Below, one piece after another: positions 1-8,465 of a stretch of DNA of 8,465 nt. Each line of letters starts with the position of its first letter. Positions within the stretch are counted from its first letter, which is position 1. Source of the stretch: a virus (Duplodnaviria > Heunggongvirae > Uroviricota > Caudoviricetes); IMG/VR virus record IMGVR_UViG_2671180454_000010, one strand, 5' to 3'. Below the pieces are notes generated by a model. The model did no database searches. It was given only the letters and a program-made list of their open reading frames with translations, and was not told where the DNA came from. The position numbers and the translations under genes are program-made.

Positions 1-20
1 CTGGCAAAAGTGTAGCGGTA

Positions 21-1298
21 TTAAGCGCAGCTATTTAGTGAATTAAGTAAATTAGTCAGTGACCTTGTAAAGTCTGTTAAACCTTCCTGTGAACCATCGA
101 ACATTAAGGCCAGATTATTATTCCATGAATTACTTAAGCGGCCTAACTGCGTCTGAGTAGAGTTAATAATCTTTTCCCATCCACCAGCTTTATCAATCAT
201 CCTTCCCATTTCAGCGGATACTTTAGGAAAAACATCTTTAGAAAGAACCTTACCGTCTTTCATGGCCTTGTCTAATTCTTCCGTAGTCATCCCAAGACTT
301 CTGGCAAATAACTGAAAAGCACCTGCCATTCTGTCACCTAATTGACCGCGTAGCTCTTCAGCCTGAATCTTTCCTTTAGATGCCATCTGCTCGAAAGCTT
401 TTAAAATCCCGTTAATTTCATCGGTGCTTAGCCCCATTAATCTGGATGTACCAATCACATTAGAAAATAAGGATTCTTTCTGGTCTGCATTCATATCACC
501 AGCACCAGCGGAAAACTTAGCAAAACTGCTTAATGTTTCAATCTGGTCTACACCACTACTATCAGCAAGATTCTTAACAAATTCTGTAGCTCGTTTAGCA
601 CCTTCATCACCTAAAACGAATTGTGCCGCTCGTTGTGATGCTTCTTTTTTCAGACCAACCTCCATAATCCGCCTGTAAGCTTCTAAGGCTGTCTGAAAAC
701 TATAAATGGCTGTACCTGCTTTGATTGCACTCGTAGCTAATACATCCAGACTATTTGAAGCATTTTCACTGTGATTATTTTTGCTGGTGGTCTTGTTAAA
801 CTTAGAAAGTGTTTCACGAAGAGACTGATTTAACTTTGCTAACTCACGATTAAAAGTTTCGTTTCCAAGTGTCTTGGATTTACTGCTTAAGCTGTAATAC
901 TGGCTTTTAAAATACTTCTCAAGCATAGGATTAAAGTCACGAAGCTTGCTCATATTCGCTGAGTAAGCTGCTGTGATTGCTCTGCTTCCGCTAATTCGTG
1001 GCTGTCTTGGTTGTCTAAGTGGCTTTAAAGTATCCTCAATTTCAGTTTTAATCTTAAACGCTCTAGTGTTTTTAAGACGCTGCTCAATCTTGGAAACAGT
1101 TTTATCGACATTTCTTTCCATTAGTTTGAGAGAATCATTTAAAGGCGTAGGATTAACTCTAAACGACTTATTCAATCGCTTCTCAATTCGTGATGCTACC
1201 TGCATCGTTTGTTTCTCGGCTTTTTCCAAGCCTTTTAAAACTTTCTGAGAGTTAAAACTTAACTCAATCAGAAAATCATCAACTTTAAATTGTGCCAT
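21..1298 (-). CDS. tape-measure-domain protein (phage tail length tape-measure-like), 425 aa
   Basis: ATG at 1296-1298 preceded by AAAGAGGTGA 6 nt upstream; stop at 21-23. The C-terminal half (SKGKIQAEELRGQLGDRMAGAFQLFARSLGMTTEELDKAMKDGKVLSKDVFPKVSAEMGRM) matches, from memory, the conserved tape-measure domain pattern; the N-terminal half is coiled-coil-like. Shorter than typical tape-measure proteins and ends 20 nt from the window edge. Confidence 0.5.
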   Translation of the reverse strand: MAQFKVDDFLIELSFNSQKVLKGLEKAEKQTMQVASRIEKRLNKSFRVNPTPLNDSLKLMERNVDKTVSKIEQRLKNTRAFKIKTEIEDTLKPLRQPRQPRISGSRAITAAYSANMSKLRDFNPMLEKYFKSQYYSLSSKSKTLGNETFNRELAKLNQSLRETLSKFNKTTSKNNHSENASNSLDVLATSAIKAGTAIYSFQTALEAYRRIMEVGLKKEASQRAAQFVLGDEGAKRATEFVKNLADSSGVDQIETLSSFAKFSAGAGDMNADQKESLFSNVIGTSRLMGLSTDEINGILKAFEQMASKGKIQAEELRGQLGDRMAGAFQLFARSLGMTTEELDKAMKDGKVLSKDVFPKVSAEMGRMIDKAGGWEKIINSTQTQLGRLSNSWNNNLALMFDGSQEGLTDFTRSLTNLLNSLNSCA

Positions 1299-1388
1299 TC
1301 ATATTTTTCACCTCTTTAAGCGTGTTGTACGTAAATTCTATTTTTCAGTGTGGGTATTAGCTTTACAGATTTCACGTAGCACACATAC

Positions 1389-1430
1389 AAAAAAAGGGAG
1401 AGCTACCGATGTCACTCGATAATCTCTCCC
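1389..1430 (-). terminator. candidate intrinsic terminator downstream of the 69-aa ORF
   Basis: Stem GGGAGAG (1396-1402) pairs with CTCTCCC (1424-1430); on the minus strand it is followed by U7 (complement of A-run 1389-1395). Loop is long (21 nt). Confidence 0.45.
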
Positions 1431-1454
1431 CGTATTTACCCAACCAATTCTTTT

Positions 1455-1664
1455 TTAATGTCGGACAAGATAATGTAATTCCGTTTCACCTATGATTTGA
1501 GCATCAGAAGGAATACGGTCAATACACCACTTTGGAATCTTGCGTGTTTTTGGTTTGTGTGAGGTGATAACTTGACGTTTGTTTTTAATTCTTAAGGCTG
1601 GCTTAGTTTGTAACTTTAAGTTTTCACAAACAGACCGAATAGTCTCTAAACGTTCTTCAAACAT
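1455..1664 (-). CDS. hypothetical small basic protein, 69 aa
   Basis: ATG at 1662-1664 with AAAGAGGTGA 5 nt upstream (same Shine-Dalgarno as the tape-measure-domain gene); starts 22 nt after the stop of the 236-aa ORF, so probably co-transcribed. Lys/Arg-rich. Confidence 0.5.
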   Translation of the reverse strand: MFEERLETIRSVCENLKLQTKPALRIKNKRQVITSHKPKTRKIPKWCIDRIPSDAQIIGETELHYLVRH

Positions 1665-1686
1665 TAATCACCTCTTTAATTCATAA

Positions 1687-2397
1687 TCAAACAGCCTTGC
1701 TATACTTCTGAGAAATCTTCGTTAACTGCTCAATATCAGCCATCAAAGCAATCTTCTTCTGCGACTCATATTCACTAACAAGTTCTTTCATAGTATCAAG
1801 TTCTTTTTTAAGCTTTTGCTTTAACTTATCCAGTTTACCGGAATAATGCTTAGTCAAATTAGCTTCAGCTAACTGAAGAATCTCTTCATCTGTTTTATCA
1901 GTCATCAGAATAAATTGACCAGAACCCCTTAATGCTTGTCTGACATCAATTAACCGGAACCCTTCAGGGATACTTTGAAGAACTTTAGGAACGTCTTCAA
2001 TCGCTGTACCAAAACCATCATTAAAGTTTCCTTCATAATAGATAAACGGGTTTGACTTAATCTCGTAAGCAATATCATATTCTGAAGGTTTCGAGGTTTC
2101 TTCGAAGTTCTTAACAGCATCGTAAGCGACATCAAGTCTAAGACGCTGTGATTTTAAAGCTGGGTAATATTCACGCTCAAGCTCAAATAGTGCTTCAGTT
2201 TTGCAGATATCAGGCATTTCTTGAGGCTCAGGAGACACAAAGGAAATTACCTTTGGTGACATCTTTAGCTCTTGCTCAAGCTCAATGCGCTTGTCATGCT
2301 CTTGACGCTGAATAGTATGTAGCGGATGTTCACCCTGTGGTGACCAGTCTCCGAAGCTATCAACCTTTTTACCGTTAATATATAAATCGTTTGTCAT
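1687..2397 (-). CDS. hypothetical acidic protein, 236 aa (paralog of 4041..4652)
   Basis: ATG at 2395-2397 with AGAGGAAA 7 nt upstream. Collinear homology to the 203-aa ORF: shared PEP motif, DG(F/W)G, then 13 residues to (I/L)PEG.R, then DK(S/T)..E(L/I)...A...L; coiled-coil-like Lys/Glu-rich C-terminus. Confidence 0.6.
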   Translation of the reverse strand: MTNDLYINGKKVDSFGDWSPQGEHPLHTIQRQEHDKRIELEQELKMSPKVISFVSPEPQEMPDICKTEALFELEREYYPALKSQRLRLDVAYDAVKNFEETSKPSEYDIAYEIKSNPFIYYEGNFNDGFGTAIEDVPKVLQSIPEGFRLIDVRQALRGSGQFILMTDKTDEEILQLAEANLTKHYSGKLDKLKQKLKKELDTMKELVSEYESQKKIALMADIEQLTKISQKYSKAV

Positions 2398-2424
2398 TAT
2401 AATTTCCTCTAAGTGTGGTTATTT

Positions 2425-2496
2425 CTTAATAGAGCACCTTCAACGCCAATACACTTAGAAGATGACTTAACGATTTATTAAAGATGCTCTATTAAG
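2425..2496 (-). promoter_or_regulatory. long-range inverted repeat in the leader of the 236-aa ORF
   Basis: Perfect 12-bp arms CTTAATAGAGCA (2425-2436) and TGCTCTATTAAG (2485-2496) separated by 48 bp, between the upstream hairpin and the ribosome-binding site. Confidence 0.3.
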
Positions 2497-2528
2497 AAAA
2501 GCCCTAAACATAATCTGTGAAGGGCTTT
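2497..2528 (-). terminator. GCCCU/AGGGC hairpin with U-tract (hairpin A, module 1)
   Basis: Stem GCCCT (2501-2505) / AGGGC (2521-2525), extendable to AAAGCCCT/AGGGCTTT; minus-strand transcript continues UUUUCUUAAU. Loop 15 nt. Near-identical to the hairpin at 4768-4791. Confidence 0.35.
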
Positions 2529-2600
2529 GGAGGTTTGCTTATAACGTTAACGAAGTTTCAGGAAAACTTTCTTTAAAAGCTCTGTTTAAAAACTCTTAAA

Positions 2601-2627
2601 GAAAGCCCTAACTCATGATTAGGGCAA
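2601..2627 (-). terminator. GCCCUAA/UUAGGGC hairpin with U-rich tail (hairpin B, module 1)
   Basis: Stem GCCCTA (2605-2610) / TAGGGC (2620-2625) with a 9-nt loop; on the minus strand followed by UUUCUUUAAG. Immediately 3' of the conserved core. Confidence 0.35.
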
Positions 2628-2633
2628 AGCTGT

Positions 2634-2745
2634 AAAGGATTCAATAATGAATGAACAAAGACTTTTTGAGATAGCCTCTCAGACCAACCTGAAAGGCTAG
2701 GACGAAAAGCATTGCACCTTTCCAACTCAGAATATCCATTCATCG
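2634..2745 (-). repeat. conserved non-coding element, copy 1 (candidate structured RNA or leader)
   Basis: 112 bp aligning to 4792..4905 with 4 substitutions and one 2-nt indel. The two copies do not share a reading frame across the indel, so the conservation is not protein-coding. Lies upstream of the 236-aa ORF. Confidence 0.7.
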
Positions 2746-2755
2746 CGCGGGCTAG

Positions 2756-2788
<33 letters not shown>

Positions 2789-2832
2789 ATGAGGTGTACT
2801 GGCAATAGCGGACACTACCATTTGTTCTTTTT

Positions 2833-3651
2833 TTAAGCAGCCATCTGATGATATTTTTCCCTGAAGGCTGCCGGGGAGATATTCCCCAGACGAGAGTGAC
2901 GACGCTGACGATTGTAGAAAATCTCAATGTATTCCCGTATTACTGAGATGGCTTCATCCCGGTTATTAAAACGATAGTGGCTCAGGCTCTCATTTTTCAG
3001 CGTTCCCCAGAAGCTTTCCATCGGAGCGTTGTCGTAACAGTTACCTTTACGCGACATTGATGTTTTCAGACCAGACTGCTCCTGTATGACCCGGTAATCG
3101 TATGCGCAGTACTGTGAACCTCGATCAGAGTGGTGGATTAGCCCGGCAGGTGGGCGCTGGCTCCTGAGCGCCATAAACAGGGCTTTACCTGTCAGCTCTT
3201 TTGTCATGCGCTCTCCCATGGCGTAGCCGACAATTTCGCACGTATAAACATCTTTGATGCCAGCGAGGTACAACCATCCCTCCTGTGTGGCAACATACGT
3301 CAGGTCCGCCACCCAGACCTGATTTGGTGCTGTAGGAGCGAACGTCTGGTTCAGCAGATTTGGCGCAACTGGCAGATTGTGGTTCGAGTTCGTAGTCGCT
3401 CTGAACTTGCGTTTCTGCTTACAGCGTAGCCTTAGCTCCTTACGAAGACGTGCCAGTCGGTCACGACCAACGATGATGCCATTCTCTGCCAGCTCCGTCT
3501 GGAGCCGCCGGGTTCCATATGTTTCGCGAGTGCGGATATGTGCCACCTTAATCTCCAGTTTTAGCCGCTCATCACTTTGTTTTCTGTCTGAGGGTTCATG
3601 CTGTACCCAGTTGTAATAACCGCTCCTGGATACACCAAATACCTGACACAT
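2833..3651 (-). CDS. IS3-family transposase OrfB (catalytic DDE domain), expressed as OrfAB fusion
   Basis: 272 aa from the first ATG. The same frame is open upstream to the A7 slippery site and is -1 relative to orfA. Integrase-like catalytic region typical of IS3-family OrfB (…HSDRGSQYCAYDY…RKGNCYDNAPMESFWGTLK…). Confidence 0.85.
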   Translation of the reverse strand: MCQVFGVSRSGYYNWVQHEPSDRKQSDERLKLEIKVAHIRTRETYGTRRLQTELAENGIIVGRDRLARLRKELRLRCKQKRKFRATTNSNHNLPVAPNLLNQTFAPTAPNQVWVADLTYVATQEGWLYLAGIKDVYTCEIVGYAMGERMTKELTGKALFMALRSQRPPAGLIHHSDRGSQYCAYDYRVIQEQSGLKTSMSRKGNCYDNAPMESFWGTLKNESLSHYRFNNRDEAISVIREYIEIFYNRQRRHSRLGNISPAAFREKYHQMAA

Positions 3652-3686
3652 CGCTTCAATGGGAAATTGTTGTCGCCATTGTTCGA

Positions 3687-3989
3687 TTAACGCGTATTTT
3701 TCAGCGACTCCTGTGCAAAATACGCTGTTGCTTTTTTTAATATATCTCGCTCAAGGCGAGCTTCATTTAACGCCTTACGCAGTTGCAGAATTTCAGATTC
3801 CAGTTCAGCCACCGTGCGGGAACCAGGAGTACCGAGCCCTTTTCTGGCGGCGGTAACCCATTGTCCTAAAGTGCCTTCAGGAAGAGATAATCGGGAAGCG
3901 CCTTCACTGATCGAAAGTTGATTTTCAGGAACCGTTCTGACAGCTTCGGCTTTGAACTCTTTAGAGTAACGTTGGGTTTTTCTGCTCAT
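3687..3989 (-). CDS. IS3-family transposase OrfA (HTH plus leucine-zipper-like region), 100 aa
   Basis: ATG at 3987-3989 with AGGAGC upstream. C-terminus (…ILQLRKALNEARLERDILKKATAYFAQE…) typical of IS3-family OrfA; ends just after the frameshift hairpin. Confidence 0.85.
   Translation of the reverse strand: MSRKTQRYSKEFKAEAVRTVPENQLSISEGASRLSLPEGTLGQWVTAARKGLGTPGSRTVAELESEILQLRKALNEARLERDILKKATAYFAQESLKNTR
3692..3739 (-). promoter_or_regulatory. programmed -1 ribosomal frameshift site of the IS (A7G slippery run plus downstream hairpin)
   Basis: Minus-strand TTA AAA AAA G (complement of T-run 3732-3738) in the orfA frame; slipping -1 reads …SNSVFCTGVAEKYALIEQWRQQFPIEAMCQVFG… into OrfB. A 9-bp stem GCGUAUUUU/AAAAUACGC (3692-3725) starts about 6 nt downstream. 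Confidence 0.6.
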
Positions 3990-4040
3990 TATTAGCTCCT
4001 TCTGATGCCATTCTATTTCAGGAAGGAGTGTCCGTTAAAC

Positions 4041-4652
4041 TCAGGCTACCTCACTAATCAGCTTAGCCAGTCTTGATTTCAGCAAATTAATCTCATTTTC
4101 TCTTGCTTTCATCAGTTTCTCTTTGGCAATTTCTTCAAGCTCAGCTTGTGATTTATCAGCAACAATTAGAGACAGTCGATGTGGTGCTCTGACAGCTCTT
4201 TCTGTACGAACAACTCTTTGACCTTCTGGTAAATCTGCAATCACTTTACCAATCTCTACAGGGTCATACCCCCAACCGTCACGGTCTAGTCGAGAGAAAT
4301 AAGCATAAGAATTGGTTTGAAGCTCCATCGAAATAACCATTTCGTCAATTTCGTCTTCAAGCTTGGACTGAATTTTCTCGTAAACACTTCTCATTGCTTC
4401 TTGAGAGTCTTTAATAGCTTGGAAATATCGGCGTTGTAGCTTCAACTTCAAATCAAGTTCACACCGTTCGTTCATAGAAAAATCAATTTCAACTCTTGGA
4501 ATCTCGAGTGGTTCTGGTGGAATATATGGACCTTTATTTACTTCGTGTGATTCCCGCCAAGCTCTATCAAAAGATTCACGCAAAGTTAATTCGTGAATAT
4601 CAAGTGCACTTGGTCTGTGTTCGATAAGCATTTCATGTTCATTTCTAATCAT
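4041..4652 (-). CDS. hypothetical acidic protein, 203 aa (paralog of 1687..2397); 3' end formed by the IS terminus
   Basis: ATG at 4650-4652 with AAGGGGTGA 5 nt upstream. Homologous to the 236-aa ORF (see above). The last 4 codons and the stop (4041-4053) lie inside the IS terminal inverted repeat, and the protein is about 30 residues shorter at the C-terminus than its paralog. Confidence 0.6.
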   Translation of the reverse strand: MIRNEHEMLIEHRPSALDIHELTLRESFDRAWRESHEVNKGPYIPPEPLEIPRVEIDFSMNERCELDLKLKLQRRYFQAIKDSQEAMRSVYEKIQSKLEDEIDEMVISMELQTNSYAYFSRLDRDGWGYDPVEIGKVIADLPEGQRVVRTERAVRAPHRLSLIVADKSQAELEEIAKEKLMKARENEINLLKSRLAKLISEVA

Positions 4653-4691
4653 TCGTTCACCCCTTAGTTTATTTGTTATTTCAATTTATAG

Positions 4692-4752
4692 AAGCACACT
4701 CAGCAATCAGAGGTGAAGAGTCTGACTGAACAAGAACCTGCCAAGTGTGCTT
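4692..4752 (-). promoter_or_regulatory. long-range inverted repeat in the leader of the 203-aa ORF
   Basis: Perfect 9-bp arms AAGCACACT (4692-4700) and AGTGTGCTT (4744-4752) separated by 43 bp; same position and geometry as the 2425..2496 repeat but unrelated sequence. Confidence 0.3.
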
Positions 4753-4791
4753 TTAAAAACTGAAAAAGCCCTAAACATTTCTGTGAAGGGC
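4751..4791 (-). terminator. GCCCU/AGGGC hairpin with U-tract (module 2)
   Basis: Stem GCCCT (4768-4772) / AGGGC (4787-4791), 14-nt loop; minus-strand transcript continues UUUUUCAGUUUUUAAAA. Directly abuts the conserved core. Confidence 0.4.
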
Positions 4792-4905
4792 AAAGGATTC
4801 AATAATGAATGAACAAGAGTACTTTTTGAGATAGCCTCTCAGACTAACCTGAAAGGCCATGACGAAAAGCATTGCACCTTTCCAACTCAGAATATCCATC
4901 CATCG
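4792..4905 (-). repeat. conserved non-coding element, copy 2 (candidate structured RNA or leader)
   Basis: 114 bp, about 95% identical by eye to 2634..2745; upstream of the 203-aa ORF. Predicted terminal helix 5'-GAUGGAUGGAUA (4904-4893) with UGUUCAUUCAUU-3' (4815-4804), plus internal hairpins GAAAGG/CCUUUC and GAGA/UCUC. Confidence 0.7.
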
Positions 4906-4910
4906 GATTA

Positions 4911-4942
4911 TTGAAAGAAAAATAAGAGAGAATTGCTCTCCC
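4911..4942 (-). terminator. hairpin GAGAG-CAAUU-CUCUC with U-rich tail
   Basis: Stem 4926-4930 / 4936-4940; the minus-strand transcript continues UUAUUUUUCUUUC. Could terminate the upstream 107-aa ORF transcript or be the first structure of the element's own transcript. Confidence 0.35.
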
Positions 4943-4951
4943 ATAATTAAA

Positions 4952-4980
4952 ATTATGCCATGCTTAAGGTTATTTGTCAA
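4952..4980 (-). promoter_or_regulatory. candidate sigma70 promoter facing the copy-2 element
   Basis: Minus strand TTGACA (4980-4975), 17-nt spacer, CATAAT (4957-4952): 11 of 12 consensus positions. Predicted start near 4945. Confidence 0.35.
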
Positions 4981-5081
4981 CAGCTTTTTAACAGGTTGAT
5001 AACATCAATTCTTATTTACCGCATTGTTAATAATACAACCAACAAATAAGCCAAGCAACGTCCAAGCAATTATTAAACCCA

Positions 5082-5405
5082 TTAGTGAACCCTCACAGAA
5101 TCCGTCACCAGAATATTATCACTGTACAGGATTGTCACAGCACCTTTCAAAAATTGCTCTGGGGAAATACTGTATATGTTCGTTTGCTCGATAACCAATC
5201 TTTTCATGTTGCTGTCTGTAATTGGTAGCATCATTCGAGGCTCGTTAAACTCCACCGACTGAATAAAGTCAGAGATGTTTTCTACATTATCAGCCATCAG
5301 CTTTAGTAATTTATCAAAATTAATTGCGATACCTGCATCAATGAAGCTTTGCACCATCATAGCAGTGTCGTTATCAACCATAATTTGCATTGGGTAATTA
5401 TTCAT
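5082..5405 (-). CDS. hypothetical protein, 107 aa
   Basis: ATG at 5403-5405 with AGGAG 8 nt upstream. The longer ORF to 5528 would start at TTG with no ribosome-binding site and would span leader hairpins, so the internal ATG is preferred. Confidence 0.55.
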   Translation of the reverse strand: MNNYPMQIMVDNDTAMMVQSFIDAGIAINFDKLLKLMADNVENISDFIQSVEFNEPRMMLPITDSNMKRLVIEQTNIYSISPEQFLKGAVTILYSDNILVTDSVRVH

Positions 5406-5572
5406 TTTTAAATCTCCTATGAAACACACCTCAGACCTCTTAAAATAGCCATTCTGAGGCCAGTAACCATGCGGGTTACAGAGGGAGTTGCACTGGCTGG
5501 TAAGGTAATTTATCAAATTAAGGTGCAACTCTGCCTGTAAAGTGCATTCTACCGTTTCTTAGATGGTTATTT

Positions 5573-5992
5573 TTAATTGTCTTTATTAATCAATGGCTTA
5601 ATGTAGAAATACTGTCTCCGTGAAATACCATATTTTTCTGTAATGTATCGCTGAGATTGACCAGCATTTATGGCCTGAGTGATATCATCACGGTTATAGC
5701 GGTTACCACGGGATTTATATTTGTCACCATCCACATCTTCTGAGGTATTGAAGTCTTCAATCAGCTTAATTGCATCGTGAAGGTCATCTTCTGAGGCATA
5801 ATCGAAGGTATGGATAATCTCAAAATCACCAGTATCTGCTGGTGCATTCTTCCATCTGGAGAAGCGGGATTTTAATTGCTGGTGTGTGAAGGGTTCAGCA
5901 TTACGAGTTAAATCTTTCCATGTTCCGTTATTCTCACGGACAAGGTGACCTCTATGGCGATAAAACGCATGATAATCAAATGTGCATAGCAT
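5573..5992 (-). CDS. hypothetical protein with C-terminal HTH-like segment, 139 aa
   Basis: ATG at 5990-5992 overlaps the stop of the upstream RHH ORF (TAATG). C-terminal …DDITQAINAGQSQRYITEKYGISRRQYFYIK… looks like a helix-turn-helix. Confidence 0.55.
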   Translation of the reverse strand: MLCTFDYHAFYRHRGHLVRENNGTWKDLTRNAEPFTHQQLKSRFSRWKNAPADTGDFEIIHTFDYASEDDLHDAIKLIEDFNTSEDVDGDKYKSRGNRYNRDDITQAINAGQSQRYITEKYGISRRQYFYIKPLINKDN

Positions 5993-6282
5993 TAAACCCC
6001 CAGCTTATCCGCCAGTTGATGAACCTTGGCACTCAACACCTGAATCATTGAGCAACCTGCCACTGCGGACTGTGCTTTGAGTAGTTCCAGTTGGCCCGTT
6101 GTGATTCTGATGGCCTTAGAACCCTCTGCAACGCCCTTGATAGCGTCAAACGGTGTAAGGGCTATGTGTTCCTTCAAAATCTCACCAACAAGTGCTGTGT
6201 GGCTCATGGCTGGGTATTTGTCTTTGATTGCTGCCAGTCTGGAATATGCCTCTGGCAAAAGGCGTGTAACTGTGTGTCTCAT
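5992..6282 (-). CDS. ribbon-helix-helix-like DNA-binding protein (apparent tandem RHH), 96 aa
   Basis: ATG at 6280-6282 with AAGGAAAA upstream. Two strand-helix-helix-like halves (TVTRLLPEAYSRLAAIKDKY… and IRITTGQLELLKAQSAVAG…). First gene of a minus-strand operon leaving a divergent promoter region. Confidence 0.5.
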   Translation of the reverse strand: MRHTVTRLLPEAYSRLAAIKDKYPAMSHTALVGEILKEHIALTPFDAIKGVAEGSKAIRITTGQLELLKAQSAVAGCSMIQVLSAKVHQLADKLGV

Positions 6283-6340
6283 TAAATTTTCCTTCTTAAA
6301 ATCTTTGACTTATAACTAACTTTAACATATTTATAACATA

Positions 6341-6369
6341 TTGTCAACAACTCATTTACATGTTAATAT
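6341..6369 (+). promoter_or_regulatory. candidate sigma70 promoter for the 61-aa ORF, in a back-to-back promoter region
   Basis: TTGTCA (6341-6346), 17-nt spacer, TAATAT (6364-6369). The complementary strand reads TTGACA at 6347-6342, a perfect -35 for the divergent RHH operon. Direct repeats TAACATATT at 6323-6331 and 6334-6342. Confidence 0.45.
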
Positions 6370-6420
6370 GGTTGTAGGGGGCTGATACAGGTCATTCCCT
6401 TTGATAAATAAGGGGAATTA

Positions 6421-6606
6421 ATGGGCTTTCTTGAAACAATTGCTGAATCTCACAGATTCGCAAGCTTAGGTTGCTTTGTGTTTCTGGTGCTTCTTGTGTA
6501 TCAGCTTTTAAAAATGATTATCGCCAGAAGTACACGATTCAATTTCAGCATTAAGCTTTTCAAATATGAAATCACAATTACGATTGATGATGGTAAAACA
6601 AACTAA
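6421..6606 (+). CDS. small single-pass membrane protein, 61 aa
   Basis: ATG at 6421 with AAGGGG 5 nt upstream; hydrophobic segment LGCFVFLVLLVYQLLKMII. Stop overlaps the stop of the convergent minus-strand ORF 6603..6893. Confidence 0.45.
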   Translation: MGFLETIAESHRFASLGCFVFLVLLVYQLLKMIIARSTRFNFSIKLFKYEITITIDDGKTN

Positions 6607-6893
6607 CGTTTTGTGATAATATTGGTGGCCTTTAAGTTGCTGGGGTCACCGTCTTTTAATCGTAGCTGGTGGATTGAATTCCAGATATCAAAATGATACA
6701 GCACTGCAAACCTCAAAGCGTCAATCTTTAAATCTGTCACACCATCGTAAAAGAAATAACCCCTCCCTTCTTTCTTTGGTCTAATCCGGTAAACTTCCCC
6801 GTGAGTATCCTTCATAAGATGACCTTCACGAGAAATGCTGTAACGCTTTAACAGGTAATCTTTGTATCTCTTTTCACCGTGATATTCTTTCAT
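6603..6893 (-). CDS. small protein with degenerate HNH/AP2-like fold (candidate DNA-binding module), 96 aa
   Basis: ATG at 6891-6893 with GGAGGAA upstream; start overlaps the upstream stop (TAATG). Pattern …EGRGYFFYDG…ALRFAVLYHF…RLKDGDPSNLKATN resembles HNH_3/AP2-type domains, but the expected catalytic His-x-Asp-Gly-Asn region reads LKDGD. Confidence 0.4.
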   Translation of the reverse strand: MKEYHGEKRYKDYLLKRYSISREGHLMKDTHGEVYRIRPKKEGRGYFFYDGVTDLKIDALRFAVLYHFDIWNSIHQLRLKDGDPSNLKATNIITKR

Positions 6894-7267
6894 TACTTAA
6901 TTCCTCCACCGGCAAAATACATCTTCGGTTTAATTTTTTGCTTCTTGTCATCCTGAGTTTGTTTCTTTTTCGGTGAAAGATAATAATCATCTTCACTGTC
7001 ATCGAATGGGTCTAAACCCGATACTTTGTTCTTTTGTCTTGCAAGCTCGAATCTCTTTTTCTTCTCTGCCCTCTTAATGGCTTTTTCACGTTCATCCTCT
7101 TCATCATCGAAGGGGTCCAACTCATCATCAGTGGCGGGGCACTGTGTGTTTTTATGGTCACTATCAACACTCACATCAGTGATTTCTCTGTCTTGTTTAG
7201 AAGTCTTTTTAGAGCTTACTTCAAGGTCAGATTCATTCATAGAGAGAAAATCATTTAATTCATCCAA
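6893..7267 (-). CDS. acidic protein with duplicated LDPFDD(E/S)EDD motif, start uncertain
   Basis: Frame is open from about 7375 to 6893 with no ATG before 7238-7240; the ORF track starts at TTG 7265-7267; neither has a clear Shine-Dalgarno. Two near-identical acidic motifs (DELDPFDDEEDE, SGLDPFDDSEDD) and a Lys-rich stretch. Confidence 0.45.
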   Translation of the reverse strand: MDELNDFLSMNESDLEVSSKKTSKQDREITDVSVDSDHKNTQCPATDDELDPFDDEEDEREKAIKRAEKKKRFELARQKNKVSGLDPFDDSEDDYYLSPKKKQTQDDKKQKIKPKMYFAGGGIK

Positions 7268-7334
7268 AGAAAGAAAGTCATCTTCTTTAATATCATCATT
7301 AAGTCCAGTCTCTTTATTCTTATCTGTAATATTA

Positions 7335-7366
7335 TTATCTAATGTTTTATCTAATAACTTATCTAA
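7335..7366 (-). repeat. tandem TTATCTAA repeats (3 copies, 12-bp period)
   Basis: TTATCTAA at 7335-7342, 7347-7354 and 7359-7366, plus a degenerate TTATCTG at 7320-7326; AT-rich, next to the TGACA-N3-TGTCA cluster. Confidence 0.5.
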
Positions 7367-7379
7367 ACTCTAACACGGG

Positions 7380-7437
7380 TGACATTTTGTCACTACCCCC
7401 ATGACATTTTGTCACTGGTAGTGGTGTCATTTTGTCT
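7380..7437 (-). promoter_or_regulatory. cluster of three TGACA-N3-TGTCA inverted-repeat sites (operator or iteron-like)
   Basis: TGACAtttTGTCA at 7380-7392 and 7402-7414, degenerate TGTCAtttTGTCT at 7425-7437; centre spacing 22-23 bp. Flanking inverted repeat CACTACC (7391-7397) / GGTAGTG (7417-7423). Overlaps the stop codon of the adjacent HTH gene. Confidence 0.55.
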
Positions 7438-7782
7438 TACTGAGGCTGCAACTTCCTGTGATGTAGGTCTTACAAGTAATTCCGGCTTATCATCCAGTGT
7501 GAATACACGATAAGTGCTTTGACGCCCCTGATTCTTTTGCACCTGAATTAAACCGTGTTTCTCAAGTGTCTCAATGGCTCTGATTGCTGTTCTCTTTGAT
7601 ACACCAGCCATATAAGCGAGATGGTCAATACTTGGTGAATATGATTTGTATTTCTCTTCATAGAAGTCACAGCTATGGACCATGACCATATAAATCAATC
7701 TTGCTGCTGCGTTAATTTCTTCTGAAAGTTGAGAGATTCGCACATCAAATTTATAAAACTGATTTGGGTTATATTTAGACAT
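7393..7782 (-). CDS. winged-helix/HTH DNA-binding protein, 129 aa
   Basis: ATG at 7780-7782 with GAGGTAA upstream. …LAYMAGVSKRTAIRAIETLEKHGLIQVQKNQGRQSTYRV… reads as helix-turn-helix plus wing. Family not identifiable by eye; could be a repressor or a replication-initiator N-domain. Confidence 0.6.
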   Translation of the reverse strand: MSKYNPNQFYKFDVRISQLSEEINAAARLIYMVMVHSCDFYEEKYKSYSPSIDHLAYMAGVSKRTAIRAIETLEKHGLIQVQKNQGRQSTYRVFTLDDKPELLVRPTSQEVAASVRQNDTTTSDKMSWG

Positions 7783-8145
7783 TCATAAATTACCTCATAC
7801 GTGAAAAGGCCAACCGGATAAAACCGATTAGCCTGTGTGATTAAAATATCTGGGGGATTGATGGACTGATAAAGAAGTCCATGCCTGAAACAGTACGATG
7901 ATTAAAACGCTGAGGTATACCCTGAATGAGAGGTTAATATACGCCAACCATCTGACACCTCCCCAAGTGTTACCACTTCAAGACATGAACTTTTTTATCA
8001 GCCCATATAGAAACTATAACAGATGCGATTATAAATTGCAACAATTATTTCACAGAATGATTACTGATTGGTCATTTATTGTTCACAGGGATACTTCTTA
8101 ATATCTGAATCACCTATCTTGTAAATGACCATATTTATGAGAATT

Positions 8146-8465
8146 TTAGCTCAACCTTTGAGCAATCCTGTATGACGTGCTCAGAGGCATTCTGAGAGCA
8201 TCTGCAATGCACTTAATGGGTTTTCCTTGCCTGTATAGTTTTATGAAGCTGTCGAGCGTCTCAGGTGGGTAAATGGTGGGTCTTCCTCTTAGTCCACCAC
8301 GGTTAATGATGGTTAACGGTAGCAATGTATCAGCACAGCAAACCATCTGTGTAATTTCATGCTTACGTGGTTCTTTTTTAAAAACAACGACTGCACTTGG
8401 AAACGGTGACCTAATAGTAAGCCTGTTATGCCCTGCTGGTGGAAGGTATTTAACTGCACGATGAA
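8146..8465 (-). CDS. 5'-partial ORF with resolvase-type (HTH_7-like) C-terminal DNA-binding segment
   Basis: Frame is open from the window edge to the stop at 8146-8148; the internal ATG at 8344-8346 has no Shine-Dalgarno. C-terminus …GRPTIYPPETLDSFIKLYRQGKPIKCIADALRMPLSTSYRIAQRL follows the GRP…IA…ST.YR pattern of serine-recombinase HTH domains; the upstream part does not look like a recombinase E-helix. Confidence 0.4.
   Translation of the reverse strand, partial: HRAVKYLPPAGHNRLTIRSPFPSAVVVFKKEPRKHEITQMVCCADTLLPLTIINRGGLRGRPTIYPPETLDSFIKLYRQGKPIKCIADALRMPLSTSYRIAQRLS

What the first reader, a model, noticed from the sequence alone, without database searches (positions are those of the whole stretch)
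2790..4053. IS3-family insertion truncates the 203-aa paralog and separates the two modules, with no target-site duplication
The element has canonical TG…CA ends, imperfect terminal repeats, and orfA/orfB linked by an A7G slippery site with a 9-bp stem-loop 6 nt downstream. The flanking triplets (CGA at 2787-2789, CTA at 4054-4056) do not match. The IS end provides the final SEVA-stop of the 203-aa ORF, which is about 30 residues shorter than its paralog. If the IS is conceptually removed, that reading frame runs on through copy 1 of the element. Together these point to insertion plus an adjacent deletion or IS-mediated rearrangement. The IS also lies only 44 bp upstream of the copy-1 core, where copy 2 has its candidate promoter.
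Basis: partly seen in the sequence, partly recalled or inferred. Interest (0 to 1): 0.45.

Follow-up and report, generated by a model that had tools for sequence, protein, structure and literature searches.

The report
IS600 copy at a chimeric join
The element is an ordinary, already known IS600 insertion sequence of Shigella sonnei. It really does cut short a gene of a small phage-like island, but its placement between "two modules" in this window is most likely a short-read assembly join of loci that lie far apart in real chromosomes.

Summary
Window 2790-4053 is a full-length IS600 (1264 bp, IS3 family). TG…CA ends, 19/27 terminal repeats, orfA/orfB, the A7G slippery site and the 9-bp stem are all confirmed. 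There is no 3-bp target duplication (CGA vs CTA), using ends that do give duplications in control copies.

The 4053-side junction is real and shared by every S. sonnei genome examined. It replaces the last 34 codons of a 234-aa island gene with EVA-stop.

The window is a mosaic:
- 1-2745 is the S. sonnei island at tonB/yciI.
- 2736-2789 is 54 bp of the core gene ybaV.
- 2790-8465 is IS600 plus a sister island at yecE.

In 17 complete-chromosome loci these pieces are never adjacent. There, this IS600 copy abuts a lambdoid prophage gene, again without duplication.

Several features point to a scaffolded, gap-filled short-read contig:
- Both window ends fall about 34 nt into repeats.
- A 230-nt patch carries a third island's alleles.
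- The island/ybaV join is an exact 10-nt overlap, GapFiller's default closing threshold.

Verdict: a known IS. "IS-mediated rearrangement" is right for the real locus. "Separates two modules of one element" is not supported. Low interest.

The parts
1..35 (.). Terminal ~35 nt of an IS630 copy that cuts the island's tape-measure gene. Also the left end of the window.
   Evidence: Window 1-2745 is 100% identical to S. sonnei L017, where an IS630 transposase gene abuts this point. E. coli island homology starts at 36/37.
21..1298 (-). Tape-measure gene of island 'sat1', truncated to 425 aa (688-726 aa when intact).
   Evidence: Pfam TMP_3 at 1.5e-21. Intact homologues are seen.
1687..2397 (-). 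236-aa protein of island sat1 (tonB/yciI site).
   Evidence: An identical protein lies in S. sonnei islands between tonB/yciA and yciI. It is 27% identical to the 203-aa protein.
2634..2745 (-). Conserved non-coding core, copy 1 (sat1), cut off at its upstream side.
   Evidence: Sat1 identity stops at 2745, while the true sat1 continues GATTATTGAAAG…. All 7 other islands keep homology beyond this point.
2702..2740 (.). 39-nt stretch identical in sat1 and sat2 cores. A de Bruijn contig with k<=39 must break here.
2736..2745 (.). CCATTCATCG: the exact 10-nt overlap at which sat1 sequence switches to ybaV sequence.
   Evidence: Three-way comparison. The bases on both sides differ. GapFiller closes gaps at an overlap of at least 10 nt by default (PMC3446322).
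2736..2789 (-). 54-bp fragment of the core chromosomal gene ybaV (comEA-like), nucleotides 180-233 of 372.
   Evidence: 100% match to ybaV in thousands of E. coli genomes. Complete S. sonnei genomes match 53/53, then carry G where the window has A at 2789.
2790..4053 (-). IS600, full length, 1264 bp.
2790..2816 (.). Terminal inverted repeat at the end downstream of orfB (IRR by convention).
   Evidence: 19/27 with the other end.
4027..4053 (.). Terminal inverted repeat upstream of orfA (IRL). It supplies T of the Ser codon, then E, V, A and the stop of the 203-aa ORF.
3687..3989 (-). IS600 orfA (100 aa, HTH_Tnp_1).
2833..3651 (-). IS600 orfB (DDE/rve catalytic domain), in the -1 frame relative to orfA.
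   Evidence: The fused 385-aa product is annotated with a programmed frameshift in RefSeq copies.
3692..3738 (-). Programmed -1 frameshift signal: A7G at 3731-3738 plus a 9-bp stem-loop at 3692-3725.
   Evidence: Direct reading; fold.
4041..4652 (-). 203-aa ORF: the first 200 codons of the 234-aa gene of island 'sat2' (yecE site), fused to the IS600 end.
   Evidence: The same protein occurs in at least 1000 S. sonnei contigs.
4793..4905 (-). Conserved non-coding core, copy 2 (sat2), in its native context.
8060..8289 (.). Patch identical to the third sister island (sat3, rut locus). It contains the only three differences from sat2 of complete genomes (8102, 8116, 8210).
8432..8465 (.). Right end of the window: the first 34 nt of a 174-nt exact sat2/sat3 repeat.

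Best explanation
The feature is a normal, probably still functional copy of IS600. IS600 belongs to the IS3 family: a DDE transposase is made as an OrfAB fusion by -1 frameshifting on A7G, the element moves by copy-out/paste-in, and it normally makes a 3-bp duplication.

In an ancestor of S. sonnei, IS600 inserted into the 3' part of a 234-aa gene. That gene belongs to a small phage-like integrative island lodged in yecE. The insertion replaced the last 34 codons with EVA-stop. This junction is fixed in the species (shown).

The other flank of that copy was later exchanged, most simply by homologous recombination with another of the many IS600 copies. In complete chromosomes it now abuts a truncated lambdoid-prophage gene, and no duplication remains. 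The different flanks are shown; the recombination mechanism is inferred.

In this window the exchanged flank is different again: 54 bp of ybaV followed by a different sister island, the one at tonB/yciI. The most likely reason is technical rather than biological. The window looks like a complete short-read de Bruijn contig or scaffold in which gaps across repeats were closed greedily. The IS600 body would have bridged two unrelated IS600 flanks. The island-to-ybaV join would have been made at a chance 10-nt overlap, just where the sat1 contig had to end in a 39-nt inter-island repeat. This technical reading is inferred.

So the lack of a duplication is genuine for the real locus, but the 'two modules separated by an IS' architecture is not a property of the genome.
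For: IS identity and anatomy.

Ends validated by duplications in control copies.

The 4053-side junction (…CCTCA|CTAATCAGC) is identical in 9 of 9 complete S. sonnei loci, where the 2790 side is TAACCCCTTATACCC from a DUF1737 prophage gene.

The uninterrupted orthologue continues for 34 aa.

Mosaic structure of the window.

The pieces lie at separate loci. sat1 sits between tonB/yciA and yciI/kch. sat2 sits next to yecN/cmoA/cmoB/torZ. ybaV sits between ppiD and fadM. In one genome (CBDDMI010000001.1), sat1 is at 1.80 Mb and ybaV at 3.37 Mb.

Duplication-less IS600 copies are common in S. sonnei (4 of 9 in one genome). IS-mediated rearrangements in Shigella are documented in PMC7373316.

Signs of an assembly artefact:
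- The window starts about 35 nt into IS630 and ends 34 nt into a 174-nt exact sat2/sat3 repeat.
- The only three differences from sat2 are sat3 alleles inside a 230-nt patch identical to sat3.
- The resulting Dam variant occurs in 151 collection blocks, all with contigs under 20 kb. The normal allele occurs in complete chromosomes.
- Sister assemblies carrying that variant contain N-gapped scaffolds that interleave sat1 and sat2.
- The sat1|ybaV overlap is exactly 10 nt, GapFiller's default minimum. It lies at the end of a 39-nt sat1/sat2 repeat.
- The Velvet+SSPACE+GapFiller pipeline was run on 299 S. sonnei isolates, and its authors warn of false joins.
- Neither junction exists in the species-representative genome contigs or metagenome contigs. 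Neither exists in 5426 E. coli genomes or in the plasmid collection.
Against: The ybaV|IS600 junction at 2789/2790 shows no overlap signature. It is also not the canonical S. sonnei one: complete genomes have IS600 in ybaV 79 bp further on, with duplication TAC and G instead of A at the 2789 position. At least this junction may therefore be a real strain-specific event, such as a new insertion or an adjacent deletion. If so, part of the arrangement could be biological.

Other limits:
- The window contains no N.
- I could not see the reads or identify the source assembly.
- No collection of Shigella DNA could be searched by similarity. Absence of the junctions rests on about 17 complete chromosomes sampled through protein look-ups.
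- An exact 10-nt microhomology can also arise in genuine illegitimate recombination.
Confidence: 0.75

Rival explanations
1. The arrangement is real in the source strain. Two or three successive rearrangements brought the tonB/yciI island, a ybaV fragment and the yecE island together. These would be IS600-IS600 recombination, a new IS600 insertion or adjacent deletion in ybaV, and a microhomology-mediated join at CCATTCATCG.
For: S. sonnei has hundreds of IS copies and frequent IS-driven rearrangements (PMC7373316). Four of 9 IS600 copies in one genome lack duplications. The ybaV|IS600 junction has no artefact signature and differs from the canonical one, so some strain-specific event is likely. 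The window has no N.
Against: This needs three independent non-canonical junctions within 1.3 kb. None was seen in 17 complete-chromosome loci or in any searched collection. The join that matters lies at the end of a 39-nt inter-island repeat and has exactly the gap-closer's 10-nt threshold. Both window ends and the sat3 patch mark a short-read contig that cannot span a 1264-bp multicopy repeat on read evidence alone.
Confidence: 0.17
2. One reading: one element carries two tandem paralogous modules. IS600 inserted between them and an adjacent deletion removed about 100 bp of the 203-aa gene plus the duplication.
For: There is no duplication, the ORF is truncated, and a second module lies on the other side of the IS. 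In-silico removal keeps an open frame.
Against: The sequence next to the IS is ybaV, not island DNA. The two modules are 100% and 99.9% identical to two separate S. sonnei islands at different loci. All related E. coli islands have a single module. The two proteins are only 27% identical, each with its own close orthologue in single-module islands. The open frame is YbaV's frame.
Confidence: 0.03
3. The sat1|ybaV join is a site-specific event directed by the conserved core and its neighbouring 236-aa protein, which is annotated 'transposase'. On this reading, the core plus that protein form a recombination module that captured ybaV.
For: The join lies near the upstream edge of the ~110-nt core and uses a 10-nt identity. 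PGAP labels the 236-aa protein 'transposase'.
Against: In 7 of 7 other islands, homology continues upstream of the join, so it is not a natural element boundary. The protein has no hit in Pfam, NCBIfam, PHROGs or PADLOC. Its predicted fold is a long helical hairpin with a small beta insert, and it has no significant structural neighbour and no recombinase-like fold. No second example of such a join exists.
Confidence: 0.03

Closest known systems
IS600 (IS3 family), as annotated in RefSeq 'IS3-like element IS600 family transposase'
   Same: 99-100% nucleotide identity over the full 1264 bp. Same TG…CA ends and 19/27 terminal repeats. Same orfA/orfB with an A7G -1 frameshift. HTH_Tnp_1 plus rve domains.
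   Different: This copy has no 3-bp direct repeat (CGA/CTA). That is a property of its history, not of the element, and many S. sonnei copies share it.
IS-mediated genome rearrangement and gene decay in Shigella (Hawkey et al. 2020, PMC7373316)
   Same: IS600 is one of five IS expanded in all Shigella. These IS interrupt genes and promote deletions and rearrangements between homologous copies. Here an island gene is truncated, and in complete genomes the two IS flanks come from an island and a prophage.
   Different: I could not locate the reciprocal junction, so inversion versus deletion is not resolved.
False joins by greedy scaffolding and gap closing (SSPACE/GapFiller; PMC5320598, PMC3446322)
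   Same: GapFiller closes a gap when the two extensions overlap by at least 10 nt. The pipeline authors state that false joins can result. The window shows an exact 10-nt overlap join at a contig-breaking repeat. It has repeat-bounded ends and paralog allele mixing. Sister assemblies have chimeric N-gapped scaffolds.
   Different: The assembler used for the source record is unknown to me. The ybaV|IS600 junction is not explained by an overlap merge.

Membership tests
IS3 family / IS600 | Near-identity of the whole element to IS600 copies, with sharp homology ends | tested here: met
   99-100% over 2790-4053 in over 6000 records. Matches begin at 2790 and end at 4053.
IS3 family / IS600 | DDE (rve) transposase preceded by an HTH orfA | tested here: met
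   PF01527 at 2e-19; PF00665 at 9e-26; NF033516 transpos_IS3 at 1e-99, 334 bits against a cut-off of 160.
IS3 family / IS600 | orfB in the -1 frame, with an A-rich slippery heptamer and a downstream structure | tested here: met
   A7G at 3731-3738(-). The frame offset of orfB is -1 (coordinates). A 9-bp stem lies 5-6 nt downstream, though its energy z-score is only -1.2. RefSeq copies are annotated 'programmed frameshift'.
IS3 family / IS600 | Imperfect terminal inverted repeats ending 5'-TG…CA-3' | tested here: met
   27-nt arms, 70% complementary, TGAGG…CCTCA.
IS3 family / IS600 | 3-bp target-site duplication | tested here: not met
   CGA vs CTA in the window; CCC vs CTA at the same copy in complete genomes. 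Control copies do show it: TTC, GTT, CAT, AAC, AGC, CCA, GAC, CGG, TAC. The failure reflects post-insertion flank exchange or mis-joining, not a different kind of element.
   E. coli islands L001-L004 and S. sonnei sat1, sat2 and sat3 each carry one module.
Gap-closing artefact (GapFiller-type merge) | Join at an exact overlap of the minimum allowed length, at a contig end, unsupported elsewhere | tested here: met
   Exactly 10 nt with differing bases on both sides. Default n = 10. Located at the end of a 39-nt inter-island repeat. Absent from all other data searched.
Gap-closing artefact (GapFiller-type merge) | No read or long-read support for the join in the source isolate | not testable with these tools
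   Reads and the identity of the source assembly are not available.

The most novel reading that the evidence does not exclude
The join between the conserved non-coding core of the tonB/yciI island and ybaV is a genuine in vivo recombination at a 10-nt identity. On this reading, the core region of this uncharacterised island family is a recombination-prone or actively recombining site. IS600 would then have linked two sister islands in one strain, creating a hybrid island.
Probability: 0.05. Interest if true: 0.4.

Novelty: already known. Interest (0 to 1): 0.08.

Why it matters
Mostly as a caution. An IS without direct repeats, sitting between two look-alike modules, invites a story about rearrangement within one element. 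Here the flanks come from three loci, and the arrangement is probably an assembly product. Any downstream analysis of the two 'modules' should treat them as counterparts from separate sister islands, not as a tandem pair. It should ignore window 2736-2789 as island sequence. The biologically real part adds one more routine example to the well-documented IS-driven decay of Shigella genomes: IS600 inactivating a gene of a small phage-like island in S. sonnei, followed by flank exchange.

Tried and rejected
- Rfam scan of the whole window: only a sub-threshold miRNA hit, so nothing relevant.
- Exact look-ups of the 82-aa ORF spanning IS, ybaV and core, and of predicted IS-fused YbaV fragments: not on record.
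- YbaV homologue search: returned only full-length proteins and frameshifted forms from error-prone assemblies.
- Exact scans for the 33-mer junction in species-representative genomes and metagenomes: zero hits. These collections hardly contain Shigella, so this is weak evidence.
- Apparent extensions of BLAST matches 7-21 nt into the flanks in some plasmids and genomes: direct inspection showed chance partial similarity, not shared flanks.
- Hawkey et al. supplements: no mention of ybaV or yecE.
- The 'transposase' label of the 236-aa protein: no support from four profile libraries, a PDB sequence search, a 1.84-billion-protein search (18 clusters only), or a fold search of an AlphaFold model with pLDDT 76.
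- Literature search for a named satellite family with this gene set: nothing specific.
- Alternative IS end definitions shifted by 1-3 nt: none produces a direct repeat.
Full report
**What is at 2790-4053.** The segment is a complete copy of IS600, a well-known IS3-family insertion sequence of Shigella and E. coli. It matches thousands of copies at 99-100% identity. The homology starts exactly at 2790 and ends exactly at 4053.

- TGAGG…CCTCA ends and 27-nt terminal repeats, 19/27 complementary.
- orfA at 3687-3989(-), with an HTH_Tnp_1 domain.
- orfB at 2833-3651(-), with an rve domain, matching NCBIfam transpos_IS3 at 334 bits. orfB is in the -1 frame.
- An A7G slippery run at 3731-3738(-).
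- A 9-bp stem, GCGUAUUUU/AAAAUACGC, starting 5-6 nt further on. Its energy is not unusual against shuffles (z = -1.2).

RefSeq annotates equivalent copies as a 385-aa fusion made by programmed frameshift. By the usual convention the end at 4053, upstream of orfA, is the left end.

**The missing duplication is real.** The flanks are CGA and CTA. The end definition is sound, because the same ends give perfect 3-bp repeats in control copies:
- TTC and GTT in S. sonnei loci.
- Five of nine full-length copies in one S. sonnei chromosome.
- TAC at the canonical ybaV insertion.
- Three of four E. coli or plasmid copies.

The controls also show that copies without repeats are commonplace in S. sonnei: four of nine in that one genome.

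**The truncated gene.** The 203-aa ORF is identical in at least 1000 S. sonnei contigs. Its first 200 residues align with a 234-aa protein of related E. coli islands (L002, 98% nucleotide identity). At the junction the orthologue reads …LIS-DHQALAKEY… for 34 more residues. The window reads …LIS-EVA-stop, with EVA-stop supplied by the IS end. So the insertion truncates the gene, as claimed.

**What the flanks are.** Local BLAST against fetched loci shows that the window is a mosaic:
- Positions 1-2745 are 100% identical to an island of S. sonnei. This island, which I call sat1, lies between tonB/yciA and yciI/kch. The match includes the IS630 that cuts its tape-measure gene.
- Positions 2736-2789 are 54 bp of the core gene ybaV, found in 5424 of 5426 E. 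coli genomes.
- Positions 2790-8465 are 99.9% identical to IS600 plus a second island, sat2, lodged in yecE next to yecN/cmoA/cmoB.

S. sonnei also has a third sister island, sat3, near the rut operon. Related islands in E. coli are about 11-12 kb. Their gene order is: large serine recombinase, Dit-like baseplate protein, tape-measure protein, a ~70-aa protein, a ~235-aa protein, the non-coding core, small ORFs, an HTH/Rep-like protein, Dam, and a small resolvase. Each carries one module.

The '236-aa paralog' and the '203-aa protein' are only 27% identical. Each has its own close orthologue in single-module islands. They are therefore counterparts from different islands, not a tandem pair. 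The 44 bp between the IS and 'copy 1' are ybaV coding sequence. This also explains the in-silico read-through: the added residues RVSINNASAEELARAMNG are YbaV 61-78.

**The real S. sonnei locus.** In nine complete-chromosome loci the 4053-side junction is the same as in the window (…CCTCA|CTAATCAGC). The 2790 side, however, is TAACCCCTTATACCC, inside a truncated DUF1737 gene of a lambdoid prophage remnant. Again there is no repeat.

So in real genomes this IS600 copy joins two unrelated elements. The simplest history is:
1. Insertion into the island gene.
2. Later recombination with another IS600 copy, producing either an inversion or a deletion. I could not find the reciprocal junction.

This is the ordinary behaviour of expanded IS in Shigella (PMC7373316).

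**Why the window's own arrangement is probably not biological.**
1. In eight complete loci holding sat1 and nine holding sat2, the other island is never within 10 kb. In one genome sat1 is at 1.80 Mb and ybaV at 3.37 Mb.
2. The window begins about 35 nt inside IS630 and ends 34 nt inside a 174-nt exact sat2/sat3 repeat. This is the pattern of a complete de Bruijn contig with k around 35.
3. The window differs from sat2 of all nine complete genomes at only three positions: 8102, 8116 and 8210. All three are sat3 alleles, within a 230-nt stretch identical to sat3.
4. The Dam protein variant this creates is found in 151 collection blocks, all with contigs under 20 kb. The normal variant is present in complete chromosomes.
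5. Assemblies carrying the variant include N-gapped scaffolds that interleave sat1 and sat2 segments.
6. A short-read contig cannot cross a 1264-bp multicopy IS on read evidence. It has to be scaffolded and gap-filled.
7. The sat1-to-ybaV switch occurs in an exact 10-nt overlap (CCATTCATCG), with different bases on both sides. It sits at the end of a 39-nt stretch identical in sat1 and sat2, where such a contig must break.
8. GapFiller declares a gap closed when the two extensions overlap by at least 10 nt by default (PMC3446322). The Velvet+SSPACE+GapFiller pipeline was applied to 299 S. sonnei isolates, and its authors note that false joins can occur (PMC5320598).
9. In seven of seven other islands, homology continues upstream of the join, so it is not a natural boundary of the conserved core.
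10. Neither junction is found in E. coli genomes, plasmids, species-representative genomes or metagenomes.

**What remains unexplained.** The ybaV|IS600 junction at 2789/2790 is not the canonical one. Complete S. sonnei genomes carry IS600 in ybaV 79 bp further on, with a TAC repeat. They have G where the window has A at 2789. There is no overlap signature at this junction. It may be a genuine strain-specific insertion or an IS-adjacent deletion. This keeps a real, multi-step rearrangement alive as a rival, at about 0.17.

**The exotic reading.** One could suppose that the core and its neighbouring 'transposase' directed the join. This is disfavoured. The 236-aa protein has no hit in Pfam, NCBIfam, PHROGs or PADLOC. 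It belongs to a tiny family: 18 representative clusters among 1.84 billion proteins. Its AlphaFold model (pLDDT 76) is a long helical hairpin with a small beta insert, with no significant structural neighbour and no recombinase-like fold.

**Verdict.** The element is already known. It is partly wrong: 'separates the two modules' of one element. The window's architecture around the IS should not be used for biological inference until the reads are checked. Interest is low.

Noticed in passing
window 1-2745 and 4054-8465; loci L001-L004, L016-L023, L006-L014, L048-L050: A family of ~11-12 kb integrative islands: large serine recombinase, Dit-like baseplate protein, tape-measure protein, ~70-aa and ~235-aa proteins, conserved non-coding core, HTH/Rep-like protein, Dam, small resolvase. 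It occupies at least three sites (tonB/yciI, yecE, rut). At least 492 of 5426 E. coli genomes match, and S. sonnei has three copies. They have tail genes but no capsid or terminase genes in view. I found no named satellite family for them.
   Followed up: partly
window 1687-2397(-) and 4041-4652(-): The ~235-aa island protein is labelled 'transposase' by PGAP but has no hit in any profile library. It belongs to only 18 representative clusters among 1.84 billion proteins. It is predicted as a long helical hairpin with a small beta insert and has no significant structural neighbour. The label looks unfounded.
   Followed up: yes
window 2634-2745 and 4793-4905 (minus strand); alignment A1: A ~110-nt non-coding core is strongly conserved across islands, including an invariant GAAAGGTGCAATGCTTTTCG. 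Upstream lie a terminator-like hairpin and a near-consensus sigma-70 site (TTGACA-17-CATAAT with TG, 4980-4952). Downstream are GCCCTAA…TTAGGGC hairpins. There is no Rfam match. The short ORF through it is broken in copy 2, so it is probably an RNA or a DNA site.
   Followed up: partly
window 6893-7782(-): The island's HTH/replication-initiator-like gene is split into 129-aa and 124-aa ORFs. It is intact (306-317 aa) in E. coli relatives and in sat3. This suggests sat2 is a decaying island in S. sonnei.
   Followed up: no
window 8060-8289: A patch identical to the paralogous island sat3 inside sat2 creates a Dam variant (Cys instead of Tyr) that is seen only in short contigs. It is either paralog mixing by the assembler or gene conversion.
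   Followed up: yes
L044-L046 (S. sonnei ybaV locus): ybaV (comEA-like) is interrupted by IS600 in complete S. sonnei genomes, with a TAC duplication. In one genome that IS600 is itself interrupted by an IS21-type element.
   Followed up: partly
L033 (S. sonnei nadB locus): An IS600 copy inside nadB has both flanks in the same gene but no 3-bp repeat (GAC vs TAC). So loss or imperfection of the repeat also occurs without an obvious flank exchange.
   Followed up: no
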